Shown here one piece after another: positions 10,280 to 59,778 of a stretch of 64,000 nucleotides of DNA. The stretch is from Candidatus Kerfeldbacteria bacterium (GTDB lineage Bacteria > Patescibacteriota > Patescibacteriia > UBA10025 > JAHIVO01). A program made the position numbers and the translations under genes. The stretch covers positions 37,820-101,819 of the forward strand of contig JACROE010000002.1 of assembly GCA_016214565.1 (NCBI GenBank). The letters are read 5' to 3'. How positions within the stretch are numbered: the first letter of the stretch is position 1; each line of letters opens with the position of its first letter. The notes beneath the pieces are model-generated. The model was not told where the DNA came from. It did no database searches and was given only the letters and a program-made list of their open reading frames with translations.

Positions 10280-10876
10280 TTACTTCCCCTCCCCCTCCAT
10301 TAGTTTATCAATTAAATCGCGTAAGTAGTCAGCCTTCGTCTTCTTGGATCGCTTTGCCTTTTGCTCCAGATATCGTTCCATACGAGGCGTGATGCGAAGC
10401 GTAAATTTAATGGTGGGGCGCTGTTTCAAGCCTTTGCCTGAGGTAACATCATCTATAAAATTCATCAGAACCTGCTCCAACGATTCGCGTGAATACTCCT
10501 CCATACACACGAATTCCGGGGTATTTTTCTTGGTTAAATACCCATGAGAAACTCGATCAGGCGTATTCTTATGAAACAAATAGAGCAACGGCTTTTTCTG
10601 GGAAATCGCGTAGGCCAATAAATACCCAATCTCCTGATCCGGCTGAGATGCCTCAATCACGAAGCAATCCATTTTATCCAGCAAAATTTCCCCCGACTGC
10701 TGCATCGCCTCCAGATCTTCCTTGCGGAAATCGGTATTATTTTCATTTGATGATGAAACGACAAAGACGCCGGCATTGCGGAGAATTTCCGCGATGCGTC
10801 CGTATTGGTCGCTCAGGTTATTATTTGATATGGCTGGCTGGAAAAAGTAAGCTCTCATGTTTTTATAAGTTGTCAC
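10280..10876 (-). CDS. Fusion of a nucleoside 2-deoxyribosyltransferase-like (NDT-fold) domain to a C-terminal ribbon-helix-helix DNA-binding domain
   Basis: 198 aa. The N-terminus shows the NDT pattern RAYFFQP ... DCFVIEASQPDQEIGYLLAYAISQKKPLLYLF (D-x-E-hG-Y-h-h-A-x-x-KP). The C-terminus TIKFTLRITPRMERYLEQKAKRSKKTKADYLRDLIDKLME is CopG/RHH-like. Stop is 2 nt from the next gene start. Confidence 0.5.
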   Translation of the reverse strand: MTTYKNMRAYFFQPAISNNNLSDQYGRIAEILRNAGVFVVSSSNENNTDFRKEDLEAMQQSGEILLDKMDCFVIEASQPDQEIGYLLAYAISQKKPLLYLFHKNTPDRVSHGYLTKKNTPEFVCMEEYSRESLEQVLMNFIDDVTSGKGLKQRPTIKFTLRITPRMERYLEQKAKRSKKTKADYLRDLIDKLMEGEGK

Positions 10877-11317
10877 TCTGAGTTATGTGGCAGGAGATGC
10901 CGAAACAAGTTCGGCATGAGGACTTTTTTATACCCATCATTCGTCCTCCCGCCTCATCCTGAACTCGTTTCAGGATCTCAGACATACCATTCTACTGATA
11001 AATCATTAAAGTGTTGGTTCATAGCTCGTACTAAATTTAACTTCCAGTCACGATGCCAATTCTTCAATTGTTTCTCTCGTGCAAACGCATCGGTTGCCAT
11101 GAAAAATTCTTCATAATATACAAGCTTATTAACATTATATTTCTTTGCGAAGCCTAGAATTTCCTTTGACTTATGCTGTCTTACTCTACCCTCCAGATTC
11201 CTTGTGGTTCCAATATATAAAACTGAGTTGGTCTTATTTGTCATAATATATACGTAATACTGCTTTTCAGTCGGCATAGAGATGCTTCACTCCACTGCGT
11301 TTCGTTCAGAATGACAA
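10871..11317 (-). mobile_element. GIY-YIG gene cassette bounded by imperfect terminal inverted repeats
   Basis: Left end tgtcactctgag at 10871-10882. Right end ttcagaatgaca at 11305-11316, which is the reverse complement tgtcattctgaa, a 10/12 match. The right end extends into the longer family motif cgtttcgttcagaatgacaa. No target-site duplication is evident. Confidence 0.4.
10978..11277 (-). CDS. GIY-YIG nuclease family protein, YhbQ/Slx1-like single domain
   Basis: 99 aa. YYVYIMTN...VLYIGTTRNLEGRVRQH has the GIY-YIG core with Arg and Glu/His. Confidence 0.8.
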   Translation of the reverse strand: MPTEKQYYVYIMTNKTNSVLYIGTTRNLEGRVRQHKSKEILGFAKKYNVNKLVYYEEFFMATDAFAREKQLKNWHRDWKLNLVRAMNQHFNDLSVEWYV

Positions 11318-12310
11318 TTAATATTTCTCCCACATCATTAAGCGGATTTTGCCGAGATCATTCGTCTGGCCAAGCACCCACATGAATTTCACAAACGCAG
11401 TTTCAAAAGTCAAATGATTGACTAAAATATACTCCCGCTTCTTTTTTTTCAGATCCAGGGCAAATGGATTATGCGCCACGACTGGGATACCTTTCTGGTA
11501 CGCCAACGCCAGCACCTTTTCAAACGATTGAGGGAACAAATTCGTATTAAAACTGCGTATCATAATTCCGTGATATTTTTTCTCAACCAGTGATTCCAAT
11601 TGGCTTGCCTGCACCCCGGGGACAAGTTGGAAAAGGCAGACCTGATCATCAACTGCATCAGTCAGCCGCGGTGTTTGGCGTGATCGCGGTCGGACCTGAT
11701 TAAATAATTTAATGCCAAAATCAACTTTACCCAACATGCCGTGCTCTGAACTAGCATCAAAGAAATTAAACGACGCCGAGTCGCTCTTCACTGTCTCGAC
11801 GGCTTTGATAAGGCGGTTGCCAAACATGATCGCCACCTCGGCAATGTTCATGGTAGCCACTTGCGCAGCATTGATGAGATTTGCCTTAACGCCTAAGGTT
11901 TTGTAGCTCGACATCATGCCGGCCAAATCGTGATCCGCGCTTTCCGCATCCTGCGCTAATGGTGAGCCAGTAAAAATGATGGGCTTCGGCAATTGAGCCA
12001 GCATGAATGATTGCATGGCAGCAGTGTAAATGATGGTATCAATGCCATGCGTCACCACGAATCCGTCATACTGGTCAATCCGCTTATATATTTCTCGCGC
12101 CAAACGCTGCCACAGGCCGGGCTCAATCTCTGATGCATCGCCGCCATACACAAAAACCGGATCAATATTTGCAATCAATCCTAATTCCGGCATGGCTGCC
12201 AGCCATTTCTTCATATCGCCCTCCTGCTGCACGGTCAATATACCGTCATCGGTGATGATTGACGATCCTCCGCAGAAAAGCAGGCATATATTGTGATTCT
12301 TTGATGGCAT
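11318..12310 (-). CDS. ansA: L-asparaginase, type I family
   Basis: 330 aa. The N-terminal LLFCGGSSI, a THGIDT motif (the hGTDT counterpart) and an overall asparaginase/glutaminase pattern. Confidence 0.75.
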   Translation of the reverse strand: MPSKNHNICLLFCGGSSIITDDGILTVQQEGDMKKWLAAMPELGLIANIDPVFVYGGDASEIEPGLWQRLAREIYKRIDQYDGFVVTHGIDTIIYTAAMQSFMLAQLPKPIIFTGSPLAQDAESADHDLAGMMSSYKTLGVKANLINAAQVATMNIAEVAIMFGNRLIKAVETVKSDSASFNFFDASSEHGMLGKVDFGIKLFNQVRPRSRQTPRLTDAVDDQVCLFQLVPGVQASQLESLVEKKYHGIMIRSFNTNLFPQSFEKVLALAYQKGIPVVAHNPFALDLKKKKREYILVNHLTFETAFVKFMWVLGQTNDLGKIRLMMWEKY

Positions 12311-16073: not shown

Positions 16074-16085
16074 ATTGTTTTTGCT

Positions 16086-16220
16086 GTCACTCTGAGCGAA
16101 CGCGAAGAGTCTCTATGACATTAATTAAACGATACATTAACAGTATACCACTCCACATGGTCAATCGTCATTGAGATTCTTCGGTCGTCGAGCTGAGCTC
16201 GACTTCCCTCAGAATGACAA
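16086..16220. mobile_element. ORF-less 135-bp miniature element made of two inverted copies of the 28-nt repeat motif
   Basis: The forward copy gtcactctgagcgaacgcgaagagtctc is at 16086-16113. The reverse copy gagattcttcg[gtcgtcgagctgagctcgacttcc]ctcagaatgacaa is at 16173-16220 and carries a 24-nt internal palindromic insertion. It sits in the murF-ftsI intergenic space. Confidence 0.4.
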
Positions 16221-45870: not shown

Positions 45871-45902
45871 CTGTCACTTTTCTTGGCGTCAAGAAAAGTG
45901 AC
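45871..45902. promoter_or_regulatory. Perfect 14-bp inverted repeat with a 4-nt spacer, a candidate operator upstream of the CAP-PT gene promoter
   Basis: tgtcacttttcttg gcgt caagaaaagtgaca. Confidence 0.35.
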
Positions 45903-46021
45903 AAAGTATCGTAAAGAGATCCTGCCCACCCCACTTCGCGGAGCGAGGCCGGGAAAACGAGTTCAGGATGGCTTCGCCAGATTGTCACGTCGATCCGCTC
46001 CTCGCCATGACGGAGATAAGG

Positions 46022-59328: not shown

Positions 59329-59388
59329 CGGGGATTGGCCTAATTTCCGCCTAAGGCGGATCAGCCTCTGGCTGAGGCGAAACTTCTT
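59329..59388 (+). pseudogene. 5' fragment of a tRNA, truncated by the GIY-YIG gene
   Basis: cggggattggcctaatt (17 nt) and ctaaggcg are identical to the acceptor 5' strand and D-arm of the downstream tRNA-Pro. No T-arm follows; the sequence runs straight into the ATG of the GIY-YIG ORF. Confidence 0.4.
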
Positions 59389-59637
59389 ATGTTTACTGTA
59401 TATGTTTTGAAAAGTAAACGTAACGGAAAACGCTACGTTGGATACACATCAAAGAAGCCAACTCTACGATTGGGGGAACATAACCAAGGTTCTAATACGT
59501 GGTCTCGACATAACGGTCCATTTTCACTGATACATACTGAAAAATTTCCTGATAAAACATCTGCTATCAAACGTGAACGATTTCTGAAGTCAGATGTGGG
59601 AAGAAAATGGCTTGACAGTTTCCTGTCTGATGTCTGA
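59389..59637 (+). CDS. GIY-YIG nuclease family protein, second copy
   Basis: 82 aa. VYVLKSKRNGKRYVGYTSK...RLGEHN GIY-YIG core. Confidence 0.75.
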   Translation: MFTVYVLKSKRNGKRYVGYTSKKPTLRLGEHNQGSNTWSRHNGPFSLIHTEKFPDKTSAIKRERFLKSDVGRKWLDSFLSDV

Positions 59638-59649
59638 CGCGATCTCCGT

Positions 59650-59723
59650 CGGGGATTGGCCTAATTGGCTAAGGCGCACGATTCGGGTTCGTGAGATTCC
59701 GGGTTCAAGTCCCGGATCCCCGA
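59650..59723 (+). tRNA. tRNA-Pro (anticodon CGG)
   Basis: Cloverleaf by hand. Acceptor CGGGGAT / ATCCCCG with C1:G72, as in bacterial tRNA-Pro. U8. D-stem GCCT/AGGC. Anticodon stem CACGA/TCGTG. Loop TTCGGGT with U33, anticodon CGG, G37. T-arm CCGGG-TTCAAGT-CCCGG. Discriminator A73. No encoded CCA. Confidence 0.85.
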
Positions 59724-59778
59724 CGGAGATCGGATCAAAAGCTAATAAAAAAGTCACAACAGCTGTATATTACAATTG

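What the first reader, a model, noticed from the sequence alone, without database searches (positions are those of the whole stretch)
10871..11317. GIY-YIG nuclease gene bounded by imperfect 12-bp terminal inverted repeats
The 99-aa GIY-YIG ORF is bracketed by tgtcactctgag at 10871-10882 and by the reverse complement tgtcattctgaa at 11305-11316, a 10/12 match. The same termini occur elsewhere in the window as parts of a longer 28-nt motif. This looks like a small mobile cassette, analogous to a freestanding homing-endonuclease gene or a MITE, that has inserted between an operon and the asparaginase gene.
Basis: seen in the sequence. Interest (0 to 1): 0.55.

Follow-up and report, generated by a model that had tools for sequence, protein, structure and literature searches.

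The report
Ssn nuclease gene with hairpin repeats
The small nuclease gene and its inverted end sequences are real, but they are an ordinary new example of the Ssn single-strand DNA nuclease and its hairpin target repeats, a system described in 2025, here in a candidate-phyla (Kerfeldbacteria) bacterium.

Summary
TGTCACTCTGAG (10871-10882, +) and TGTCATTCTGAA (11305-11316, -) bracket an intact 99-aa GIY-YIG ORF (10978-11277, -). The same 12-mers bracket a gene-less 135-bp element at 16085-16219 (4 hits against 0.95 expected).

The termini are the outer ends of oriented ~27-nt hairpin repeats, GTCA-stem-loop-stem-TC. A covariance model built from hairpins next to 80 unrelated metagenomic homologues finds four significant copies in the 64 kb. 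All four lie in these two elements.

This is the published Ssn/SRM system (Chenal et al., Nat Commun 2025, PMC11893778). SsnA is a 94-aa single-domain GIY-YIG enzyme. It binds such hairpins only as single-stranded DNA and cuts a few nucleotides upstream. Most ssnA homologues are flanked by these repeats.

The window protein is 44% identical (E=7e-25) to the Neisseria gonorrhoeae SsnA orthologue, and the three residues that paper mutated are conserved.

The mobile-cassette reading is only partly supported. The slot between the asparaginase gene and the 192-aa gene turns over among relatives: ssnA, a 23S-rRNA-IVS-protein gene, or hairpins alone. However, a relative without the gene keeps the homologous outer hairpins, there is no target-site duplication, and identical proteins always sit in one context.

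Verdict: new member of a known kind.

The parts
10978..11277 (-). ssnA-type gene: a 99-aa single-domain GIY-YIG nuclease, intact. Residues Y10, Y21 and E68 align with the SsnA residues Y6, Y17 and E64.
   Evidence: Pfam PF01541 E=2.7e-20. BLASTP against the N. gonorrhoeae SsnA orthologue gives 44% identity over 88 aa, E=7e-25. The identical protein P0001 is annotated as a GIY-YIG nuclease family protein of a Candidatus Kerfeldbacteria MAG, on a contig of 1,116,013 bp.
11277..11317 (-). 5' SRM hairpin copy, forward relative to the gene: TTGTCATTCTGAACG..[11-nt insertion]..TGAAGCATCTCT, abutting the ATG. It is degenerate.
   Evidence: Model R1 hit of 22.2 bits, E=0.0029. It does not fold as DNA (-0.4 kcal/mol, z=+1.5). 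It is homologous to the intact first SRM of L108, TTGTCATGCTGAGCG...GAAGCATCTCT, and to the motif 5' of the L003 gene.
10954..10981 (+). 3' SRM hairpin, reverse relative to the gene. In gene orientation it reads TGA-GATCCTGAAACGAGTTCAGGATGAGG. It overlaps the stop codon.
   Evidence: R1 hit of 31.9 bits, E=1.2e-5. DNA fold -6.1 kcal/mol, z=-3.24. Conserved in L001 and L003.
10892..10922 (-). Second 3' SRM hairpin, forward relative to the gene: CCTCATGCCGAACTTGTTTCGGCATCTC. With the previous hairpin it forms an inverted doublet (82% complementary, 30-nt spacer).
   Evidence: R1 hit of 32.4 bits, E=8.8e-6. Inverted repeat I1. DNA fold -7.9 kcal/mol, z=-4.42. Identical in L003; similarity to relatives ends at 10894.
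10871..10882 (+). It lies 12 nt before the start codon of the 192-aa gene (counting from 10871).
   Evidence: It corresponds in position and sequence (CTCAGAGTGACAAC against CTCGGAGTGACAAC) to the 3' half of the last, complete SRM of L108, GAGAATCTTCACTCCGCTCGGAGTGACAAC.
16084..16115 (+). Left arm of a gene-less SRM doublet between a MurF-like ligase gene and a penicillin-binding-protein gene: CTGTCACTCTGAGCGAACGCGAAGAGTCTCT.
   Evidence: R1 hit of 27.2 bits, E=1.7e-4. Sequence. Neighbouring ORFs.
16173..16219 (-). Right arm of the same doublet, an SRM with an extra inner hairpin in its loop: TGTCATTCTGAGGGAAGTCGAGCTCAGCTCGACGACCGAAGAATCTC.
   Evidence: The arm folds at -11.6 kcal/mol, z=-2.44. 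The whole 141-nt element folds as one long hairpin at -27.1 kcal/mol, z=-4.65.
11318..12310 (-). Upstream neighbour that defines the slot: an asparaginase-family gene. Its stop codon abuts the 5' SRM.
   Evidence: Pfam Asparaginase E=4.8e-34 and Asparaginase_C.
10280..10858 (-). Downstream neighbour that defines the slot: a conserved 192-aa gene of unknown function, starting MRAYFF as in its relatives.
   Evidence: ORF. Orthologues of 192-196 aa in L001, L004, L005, L106 and L108.

Best explanation
The locus is an ssnA-type gene with its cognate SRM hairpins, that is, a member of the Ssn/SRM system.

Shown here:
- The ORF encodes a 99-aa stand-alone GIY-YIG nuclease homologous to Neisseria SsnA, with the mutagenesis-defined residues conserved.
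- The gene is flanked by oriented hairpin repeats of the form GTCA / 5-8-bp stem / loop / stem / TC. One copy, now decayed, lies directly before the ATG. An inverted doublet starts at the stop codon. A half copy lies at the far edge.
- The same layout, with a forward hairpin upstream and a reverse hairpin at the stop codon, recurs around homologues in dozens of unrelated metagenomic contigs, and the stems covary.

Taken from the literature (PMC11893778): Ssn enzymes bind the hairpin only when the DNA is single-stranded and only in one orientation. They cut a few nucleotides 5' of it, and they do not act on double-stranded DNA or RNA. In N. meningitidis this restricts incoming transforming single-stranded DNA that carries the repeats.

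Inferred for this organism:
- The Kerfeldbacteria enzyme recognises its own hairpin flavours (ATCCTGAAC.., ATGCCGAAC.., AYTCTGAGCG..CGAAGART).
- It would cut single-stranded DNA just outside the hairpins that bracket its gene and just outside the doublet at 16084-16219.
- The repeat-gene-repeat unit is an IS-like, probably once selfish and now largely resident module.
- It is gained, lost and replaced at intergenic slots over evolutionary time rather than actively transposing.
For: Protein:
- Pfam GIY-YIG only, 99 aa.
- 44% identity, E=7e-25, covering 88 of 94 residues of the N. gonorrhoeae 94-aa protein. That protein has Y6, Y17 and E64 and is embedded in NTS copies.
- tblastn E=3e-15 against a 7.3-Gb database.

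Motif:
- Model R1, built only from hairpins of metagenomic loci, gives 4 significant hits in the window, all in the two flagged elements.
- It also detects the Neisseria NTS copies.
- Invariant G3 T4 C5 A6 before the stem and T26 C27 after it. This matches the paper's finding that the three nucleotides before the palindrome govern cutting and the C after it governs binding.
- 89 of 158 pattern-collected GTCA-N19-TCT sites have all 8 pairs, against 1 of 29 in shuffles. Covariation score is 0.532 against 0.186 in shuffles.

Association:
- 245 hairpin hits in 84 loci.
- Among the 225 hits with the lowest E-values, within 60 nt before the ATG there are 38 forward and 12 reverse. At or after the stop there are 47 reverse and 14 forward.
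- An exact Neisseria NTS consensus lies next to a homologue in L057.

Literature.
Against: - The published degenerate SRM search pattern does not match any of the window's hairpins, so membership of the motif rests on architecture and on my own model.
- The CDD assignment (cd10448) used by the authors could not be run.
- The comparison was with a N. gonorrhoeae protein that I infer to be the SsnA orthologue, not with CAX49033.1 itself.
- The window holds only 4-6 copies in 64 kb, far from the hundreds per genome reported for Neisseria or Wolbachia.
- The 5' copy no longer folds.
- No biochemical or transformation data exist for any Patescibacteria member.
Confidence: 0.85

Rival explanations
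1. An autonomous mobile cassette bounded by terminal inverted repeats, with MITE-like derivatives. The nuclease would cut at its own ends and the unit would move as a whole.
For: - IS-like repeat-gene-repeat layout.
- A gene-less doublet with the same ends at 16084-16219.
- Occupancy of the asparaginase|192-aa slot differs within both sub-clades of relatives.
- L003 has a 71%-identical gene in an unrelated context with conserved non-coding flanks.
- Pseudogenised copies exist (L001 8595-8789).
- L001's insert is flanked by an 81-nt target duplication.
Against: - L108 keeps the homologous outer hairpins without the gene.
- The left terminus lies outside the shared cassette.
- There is no target-site duplication in the window.
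- Identical proteins on 22 and 15 contigs are always in one context.
- Paralogues within a genome are diverged, not near-identical (26-54% identity).
- Ssn is a hydrolytic single-strand nuclease with no known strand-transfer activity.
Confidence: 0.15
2. A free-standing GIY-YIG homing endonuclease gene. It would cut the gene-less allele as double-stranded DNA and be copied in by repair.
For: - The GIY-YIG fold.
- Weak sub-threshold NCBIfam similarity to group I intron endonucleases (23.4 bits against a cut-off of 56).
- Repeated occupation of the same slot in the window and L001, although flanking genes place them in different sub-clades.
- The duplication in L001 differs only at synonymous positions.
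Against: - The protein has 99 aa and no NUMOD, HTH or other DNA-binding domain.
- The four characterised Ssn homologues cut their cognate repeat as single-stranded DNA, and the N. meningitidis enzyme did not act on double-stranded DNA.
- The slot in relatives is filled by unrelated cassettes rather than being empty.
Confidence: 0.04
3. RNA-level elements. The inverted repeats would pair in the operon transcript, like the stems of rRNA intervening sequences, and serve as processing or stability signals for the inserted gene.
For: - The slot lies inside a co-directional gene string.
- The 23S_rRNA_IVP cassettes that occupy the same slot in relatives have long flanking inverted repeats.
- No T-run follows the hairpins on the transcribed strand.
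Against: - SsnA does not bind RNA.
- In near-perfect hairpins, G-T mismatches (6) are no commoner than A-C mismatches (7), so no single transcribed strand is favoured.
- The 3' doublet occurs in the opposite orientation relative to the flanking genes in L108.
- The window's 5' and 3' copies are poorly complementary to each other.
- No Rfam family matches.
Confidence: 0.04

Closest known systems
Ssn nucleases and their NTS/SRM hairpin repeats (SsnA of Neisseria meningitidis; cd10448; Chenal et al., Nat Commun 2025, PMC11893778)
   Same: - A single-domain GIY-YIG protein of about 94-99 aa, 44% identical to the Neisseria enzyme, with Y/Y/E residues conserved.
- Oriented hairpin repeats with GTC(A) before the stem and C after it.
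- Repeats on both sides of the gene.
- Extra repeat doublets near other genes.
   Different: - The host is a Patescibacteria (Kerfeldbacteria) MAG.
- The stem and loop flavours (CCTGAAC/GCCGAAC with a CTYGT loop, and AYTCTGAGCG..CGAAGART) are not matched by the published degenerate SRM pattern.
- Few copies are seen (4-6 in 64 kb).
- Activity and biological role are untested here.
REP/REPIN elements with RAYT (TnpA-REP) genes, and IS200/IS605
   Same: - A single gene flanked by inverted copies of a short hairpin repeat that is also scattered as singlets and inverted doublets.
- The hairpin is recognised as single-stranded DNA, with a conserved unpaired tetranucleotide next to the stem.
- The gene is stably located while the repeats spread.
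   Different: The enzyme is a hydrolytic GIY-YIG nuclease, not an HUH/Y1 transposase. No covalent intermediate or strand transfer is known.
Free-standing GIY-YIG homing endonucleases (phage T4 Seg proteins, I-TevI family)
   Same: - The GIY-YIG catalytic fold.
- A small gene inserted between conserved genes.
- Patchy presence among relatives.
   Different: Those enzymes have roughly 200-270 aa with C-terminal DNA-binding modules and cut double-stranded DNA (size and domain make-up from my own knowledge, not checked with the tools). This one is a bare 99-aa domain of a single-strand-specific family.
UPF0213 / prokaryotic Slx1-like minimal GIY-YIG proteins (BH0048 1zg2, EF2693 1ywl; PMC1564403)
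   Same: They are the closest solved structures by profile search (E=1.1e-5 and 1.3e-4), and they are minimal stand-alone domains.
   Different: They are a different subfamily. The Ssn authors treat Ssn (cd10448) as a family separate from Slx1. The window's other GIY-YIG gene (59389-59637) is the UPF0213-like one.
23S rRNA intervening-sequence protein cassettes (Pfam PF05635)
   Same: They occupy the very same intergenic slot in relatives (L004, L005, L106). They are small single-gene inserts bracketed by inverted repeats. In L005 the bracket is SRM-like.
   Different: The protein is an unrelated four-helix bundle. Most copies have their own, different inverted repeats.

Membership tests
Ssn nuclease family (cd10448) | Single-domain GIY-YIG protein of about 94-150 aa with no auxiliary domain | tested here: met
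   99 aa. The GIY-YIG catalytic domain is the only domain type found: Pfam GIY-YIG covers residues 6-81, and the only other Pfam match is the related T5orf172 model over the same residues.
Ssn nuclease family (cd10448) | BLASTP similarity to Neisseria SsnA at E<1e-10 with at least 75% coverage (the authors' criterion) | tested here: met
   E=7e-25, 44% identity, 88 of 94 residues of the N. gonorrhoeae 94-aa protein (L111 1498-1782). I infer that protein to be the SsnA orthologue from its length, Y6/Y17/E64 and surrounding NTS copies. CAX49033.1 itself was not available.
Ssn nuclease family (cd10448) | Residues needed for cleavage (Y6, Y17, E64 of Nm SsnA) conserved | tested here: met
   They align with Y10, Y21 and E68. 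These columns are invariant or nearly so among 30 homologues.
Ssn nuclease family (cd10448) | Top CDD hit cd10448 (GIY-YIG_unchar_3), or placement in that clade | not testable with these tools
   No CDD library or rpsblast was available.
Ssn nuclease family (cd10448) | Site-specific cleavage of single-stranded DNA a few nucleotides 5' of the hairpin, with no activity on double-stranded DNA or RNA | not testable with these tools
   Biochemical property, shown for four homologues in PMC11893778.
SRM / NTS repeats | Match to the published degenerate pattern HGTCWYN(0-2)YYVSBRHN(0-5)WNVSBRGN(0-2)RNCYNB | tested here: not met
   None of the window's hairpins match. The only 2 window hits are unrelated sites. 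The pattern does match 13 hairpins in my 85 loci, including an exact NTS consensus in L057.
SRM / NTS repeats | Oriented hairpin, 20-50 nt, with conserved GTC(A) 5' of the palindrome and C 3' of it | tested here: met
   Model R1 hits of 22-32 bits. Invariant GTCA and TC columns. Two of the three complete hairpins next to the gene fold with z of -3.2 and -4.4. The 5' copy does not fold, and of the two arms of the doublet at 16084-16219 the left one folds only weakly (z=+0.73) and the right one at z=-2.44.
SRM / NTS repeats | At least one copy within 500 bp on both the 5' and 3' sides of the ssn gene | tested here: met
   5' copy at 11277-11317; 3' copies at 10954-10981 and 10892-10922.
SRM / NTS repeats | Many copies per genome, clustered around genes | tested here: inconclusive
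   Only 64 kb of a 1.1-Mb contig was seen. It holds 4 significant copies plus 2-3 degenerate ones, in three intergenic clusters.
TIR transposon / MITE | Target-site duplication flanking the inverted termini | tested here: not met
   No direct repeat abuts 10871 and 11316.
TIR transposon / MITE | Empty sites in relatives that lack the element including its termini, with breakpoints at the termini | tested here: not met
   L108 lacks the gene but keeps the homologous outer hairpins. L106 lacks everything but carries an unrelated cassette, so no breakpoint can be read.
TIR transposon / MITE | Several near-identical copies in one genome | tested here: not met
   One other element shares only the hairpin ends. 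Identical proteins elsewhere are always in a single context.
Free-standing GIY-YIG homing endonuclease | GIY-YIG domain joined to sequence-specific DNA-binding domain(s) | tested here: not met
   99 aa with no further domain. The group I intron endonuclease model scores 23.4 bits against a cut-off of 56.
REP-RAYT | HUH / Y1 transposase-like protein | tested here: not met
   The protein is GIY-YIG. Only the layout is analogous.

The most novel reading that the evidence does not exclude
In candidate-phyla bacteria, SRM-ssnA-SRM units may be real single-strand-DNA-based mobile cassettes. Because the upstream hairpin is forward and the downstream one reverse, Ssn would cut just outside the unit on opposite strands. 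The unit would spread between genomes through natural transformation and homologous recombination. It would compete with 23S-rRNA-IVS-protein cassettes for the same intergenic slots in operons. Traces of this would be the 81-nt duplication in L001 that differs only at synonymous positions, and gene-less hairpin doublets.
Probability: 0.15. Interest if true: 0.6.

Novelty: new member of a known kind. Interest (0 to 1): 0.28.

Why it matters
In itself it matters little: it re-finds a system published in 2025. It does add four things.
- A Patescibacteria example.
- Hairpin flavours that the published search pattern misses, so the true spread of Ssn/SRM pairs is probably under-counted.
- An orientation rule around the gene: forward upstream, reverse at the stop codon.
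- A clear case of slot turnover among six related genomes. This bears on the open question, raised by the authors themselves, of whether repeat-ssn-repeat units are domesticated mobile elements.

New enzyme/hairpin pairs are also candidate reagents for site-specific cutting of single-stranded DNA.

Tried and rejected
- Two hand-written hairpin scanners. They gave only chance-level hits in the window because the window's stems are short or imperfect. I replaced them with covariance model R1.
- Rfam at gathering threshold and at E up to 10: no family.
- Literature searches for GIY-YIG with palindromic/intergenic/mobile/repeat terms, with Patescibacteria, with RAYT, with COG2827, with 'miniature inverted', and for the motif letters themselves. 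Nothing relevant came up until one search found the Ssn paper.
- The genome-collection scan with the asparaginase found only 2 loci, and the window's own genome is not in that collection.
- An exact look-up of the window's asparaginase was not on record, so no strain-level comparison was possible.
- Look-ups of proteins seen on many contigs (P0065, P0098), done to find multi-site copies, showed one context each.
- phmmer of the protein against PDB gave no hit. Only the profile reached UPF0213 structures.
- The paper's supplements are not held as text, so the Nm SsnA sequence was replaced by the N. gonorrhoeae orthologue found in a mislabelled PLSDB record.
- I considered and rejected an intrinsic-terminator role, because no T-run follows the hairpins on the transcribed strand.
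- I considered and rejected long-range pairing of the 5' and 3' copies in the window, because their complementarity is poor.
Full report
**1. The observation**

The repeat finder extends them to 18 nt at 83% complementarity.

The degenerate 12-mer occurs four times in the window against 0.95 expected, and none of 100 shuffles reached four. The four hits form two convergent pairs. The second pair (16085-16096 + and 16208-16219 -) brackets a 135-bp stretch without a gene, between a MurF-like ligase gene and a penicillin-binding-protein gene.

The ORF 10978-11277 (-) encodes 99 aa and matches Pfam GIY-YIG at E=2.7e-20. It lies in a co-directional string on the - strand: asparaginase-family gene (11318-12310), GIY-YIG gene, a conserved 192-aa gene (10280-10858) and a 7TM histidine-kinase-like gene. 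The identical protein is on record from a Candidatus Kerfeldbacteria MAG, on a contig of 1,116,013 bp.

**2. What the termini are**

I collected 80 metagenomic loci encoding homologues (48-65% identical) and printed the flanks of each gene. The same picture recurs in very different contexts. A hairpin of the form tGTCA-stem-loop-stem-TCTC lies 0-25 nt before the ATG. Its reverse complement, GAGA-stem-loop-stem-TGACA, lies at or just after the stop codon. Some ORFs read into that hairpin, giving C-terminal tails such as DPETSSG.

The stems differ between lineages but stay complementary: CCTGAA/TTCAGG, GCTGAA/TTCAGC, CCCGAA/TTCGGG, CCCGCA/TGCGGG, TCCGTG/CACGGA and others.

- Sites collected by the pattern GTCA-N19-TCT, with no pairing required: 89 of 158 distinct sites have all eight pairs, against 1 of 29 in shuffled loci.
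- Seventy-nine hairpins selected for pairing at the five outer stem positions: 93% of cells pair, and the covariation score is 0.532 against 0.186 in shuffles. The selection inflates the paired fraction, so the pattern-collected count is the fairer figure.
- GTCA before the stem and TC after it are invariant.

Covariance model R1 was built from these metagenomic hairpins only. In the 64-kb window it gives four significant hits, all inside the two flagged elements:
- 10892-10922 (-), 32.4 bits
- 10954-10981 (+), 31.9 bits
- 16084-16115 (+), 27.2 bits
- 11277-11317 (-), 22.2 bits

In gene orientation the locus reads as follows. A forward hairpin (decayed) comes first, then the ATG, the gene and the TGA. 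A reverse hairpin follows, then 30 nt, a forward hairpin, 10 nt, and finally the outer half of a reverse hairpin (CTCAGAGTGACA).

As single-stranded DNA, the two 3' hairpins fold well (z=-3.2 and -4.4). The 5' copy does not fold (-0.4 kcal/mol). The 135-bp element folds as one long hairpin (-27.1 kcal/mol, z=-4.65).

Across 84 loci the model finds 245 copies. I analysed the 225 with the lowest E-values. Within 60 nt before the ATG, 38 are forward and 12 reverse. At or after the stop, 47 are reverse and 14 forward.

**3. What it is**

Rfam has no matching family and most literature searches found nothing. One search turned up Chenal et al., Nat Commun 2025 (PMC11893778), which describes this system:
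- The Neisseria repeat NTS, CGTCATTCCCGCGMAVGCGGGAATCYRG, is an oriented hairpin.
- SsnA, a 94-aa single-domain GIY-YIG protein (CDD cd10448), binds it only as single-stranded DNA and cuts a few nucleotides upstream.
- The three nucleotides before the palindrome govern cutting, and the C after it governs binding.
- Y6A, Y17A and E64A abolish cutting.
- SsnA does not act on double-stranded DNA, on RNA or on the reverse strand.
- Seventy-one per cent of homologues have such 'Ssn-related motifs' (SRM) nearby, and 42% have them on both sides.
- The authors note that NTS-ssnA-NTS looks like an insertion sequence. They compare it with REP/RAYT and suggest domestication.
- In N. meningitidis the enzyme lowers transformation by DNA that carries NTS.

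A tblastn of the window protein against the plasmid collection hit two 2.17-Mb N. gonorrhoeae records (E=3e-15). One of them holds a 94-aa ORF with Y6, Y17 and E64, embedded in NTS copies. BLASTP of the window protein against it gives 44% identity over 88 residues, E=7e-25, with Y10, Y21 and E68 aligned to the three residues. This meets the authors' similarity criterion.

The published degenerate SRM pattern does not match the window's hairpins. It does match 13 hairpins in my loci, one of them an exact NTS consensus next to a homologue (L057). R1 also detects the Neisseria copies. The window's hairpins are therefore diverged flavours of the same motif class.

The closest solved structures are the UPF0213 proteins 1zg2 and 1ywl, a neighbouring subfamily of minimal GIY-YIG domains (PMC1564403).

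**4. Is it mobile?**

I compared the slot between the asparaginase gene and the 192-aa gene in six genomes.

| Genome | Asparaginase identity to window | Slot content |
|---|---|---|
| Window | 100% | ssnA with hairpins |
| L106 | 88% | 23S_rRNA_IVP gene (PF05635), no hairpins |
| L108 | 75% | Five hairpins, no gene |
| L001 | 59% | ssnA (70% identical protein) with the 3' doublet, no 5' hairpin, and an 81-nt duplication of the asparaginase 3' end |
| L004 | 65% | PF05635 gene |
| L005 | 60% | PF05635 gene, bracketed by SRM-like hairpins |

Identities of the flanking proteins suggest the grouping ((window, L106), L108) and ((L004, L005), L001). If that grouping is right, both states occur in both groups, which would need several gains, losses or replacements.

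In L108 the first and last hairpins are homologous in sequence and position to the window's two termini. In L001 the duplication is 71/81 identical, and all ten differences are synonymous in the asparaginase frame.

A 71%-identical gene in L003 sits after an aminoacyl-tRNA synthetase gene. It has the same 5' motif and an identical second 3' hairpin, and similarity to the window ends at 10894.

Against active transposition:
- L108 keeps the outer hairpins without the gene.
- The left terminus lies outside the shared cassette.
- No target-site duplication is present.
- Identical proteins seen on 22 and 15 contigs always have the same neighbours.
- Paralogues are diverged.

Among near-perfect hairpins, G-T mismatches (6) are no more common than A-C mismatches (7). 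This does not favour one transcribed RNA strand, and SsnA does not bind RNA.

**5. Verdict**

The finding is a real feature and a correct observation. It is a new member of a known kind: an ssnA-type single-strand nuclease gene with its SRM hairpins. The mobile-cassette idea is only partly supported, as evolutionary turnover of an IS-like module. The homing-endonuclease analogy is not supported.

The new points are modest: the Patescibacteria host, hairpin flavours that the published pattern misses, the orientation rule, and the slot turnover shared with PF05635 cassettes.

**6. Seen in passing**

The window's other GIY-YIG gene (59389-59637, UPF0213-like) lies directly before tRNA-Pro(CGG). 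It is preceded by a partial copy of the tRNA's 5' part and then a double hairpin, TCCGCC-NNNG-GCGGA / YCNGCC-NNNG-GCNGR.

The same double hairpin, next to tRNA-gene fragments and a homologous gene, is present in all four homologue loci for which DNA could be read. It is absent from the other 111 loci. I found no description of this and did not pursue it further.

Noticed in passing
window 59329-59724: A second, UPF0213-like GIY-YIG gene (59389-59637, 82 aa) lies directly 5' of tRNA-Pro(CGG). It is preceded by a partial copy of the tRNA's 5' part (CGGGGATTGGCCTAATT..CTAAGGCG) and then a double hairpin, TCCGCC-TAAG-GCGGA / TCAGCC-TCTG-GCTGA.

The same double hairpin with tRNA fragments and a homologous gene occurs next to tRNA-Pro (L112), tRNA-Asn (L114), tRNA-Val (L115) and, in tandem copies, in L113. 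It is absent from the 111 other loci. It looks like a distinct nuclease/hairpin pairing that targets tRNA genes. I found no description of it.
   Followed up: partly
L001 5922-6002 and 6450-6530: In a related Kerfeldbacteria genome the ssnA insert is flanked by an 81-nt direct duplication of the asparaginase 3' end. The copies are 71/81 identical, and all 10 differences are synonymous in the asparaginase frame. The two copies therefore seem to come from two diverged functional alleles, as after Campbell-type integration of a circle carrying a foreign copy.
   Followed up: partly
L004 5087-5482, L005 4190-4570, L106 4601-5038 and 5659-6114, L108 5614-6009: 23S_rRNA_IVP (PF05635) genes fill the same intergenic slots in relatives. 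Most are bracketed by their own long inverted repeats, for example ttctaatttctaat / attagaaattagaa. The L005 copy is bracketed by SRM-like hairpins.
   Followed up: partly
window 16115-16174: Inside the gene-less hairpin doublet, an ATG directly follows the left hairpin and a TGA overlaps the right one. This is the same arrangement as in the ssnA cassette, and it encloses an in-frame 19-codon ORF (MTLIKRYINSIPLHMVNRH). It could be chance or a remnant of a deleted gene.
   Followed up: no
window 45872-45971: The intergenic region between two large + strand ORFs holds a perfect palindrome, TGTCACTTTTCTTGgcgtCAAGAAAAGTGACA (45872-45903). It also holds a hairpin copy split by a 29-nt insertion, GAGATCCTG[..]AAAACGAGTTCAGGATGG (45916-45971). 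Both are below the model's threshold.
   Followed up: no
L106 7738-7993 and L001 8595-8913: Another ssnA-type gene sits after the 7TM histidine-kinase-like gene in two relatives. It is intact, with a forward hairpin abutting the ATG, in L106, and pseudogenised by an in-frame TAG in L001. The window has no gene at that site.
   Followed up: partly
loci L001-L085 (hairpin flavour GTCAYYCTGAGCGAAGCGAAGRRTCTC): One common flavour has a loop containing GCGAAGC. From my own knowledge this is an unusually stable DNA mini-hairpin, here flanked by tandem G-A mismatches. That asymmetry fits a single-stranded DNA role for the forward strand.
   Followed up: no
PLSDB records NZ_CP119140.1 and NZ_CP119142.1: Two records filed as plasmids are 2.17-Mb Neisseria gonorrhoeae chromosomes. 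This is what made a Neisseria SsnA orthologue available for comparison.
   Followed up: no
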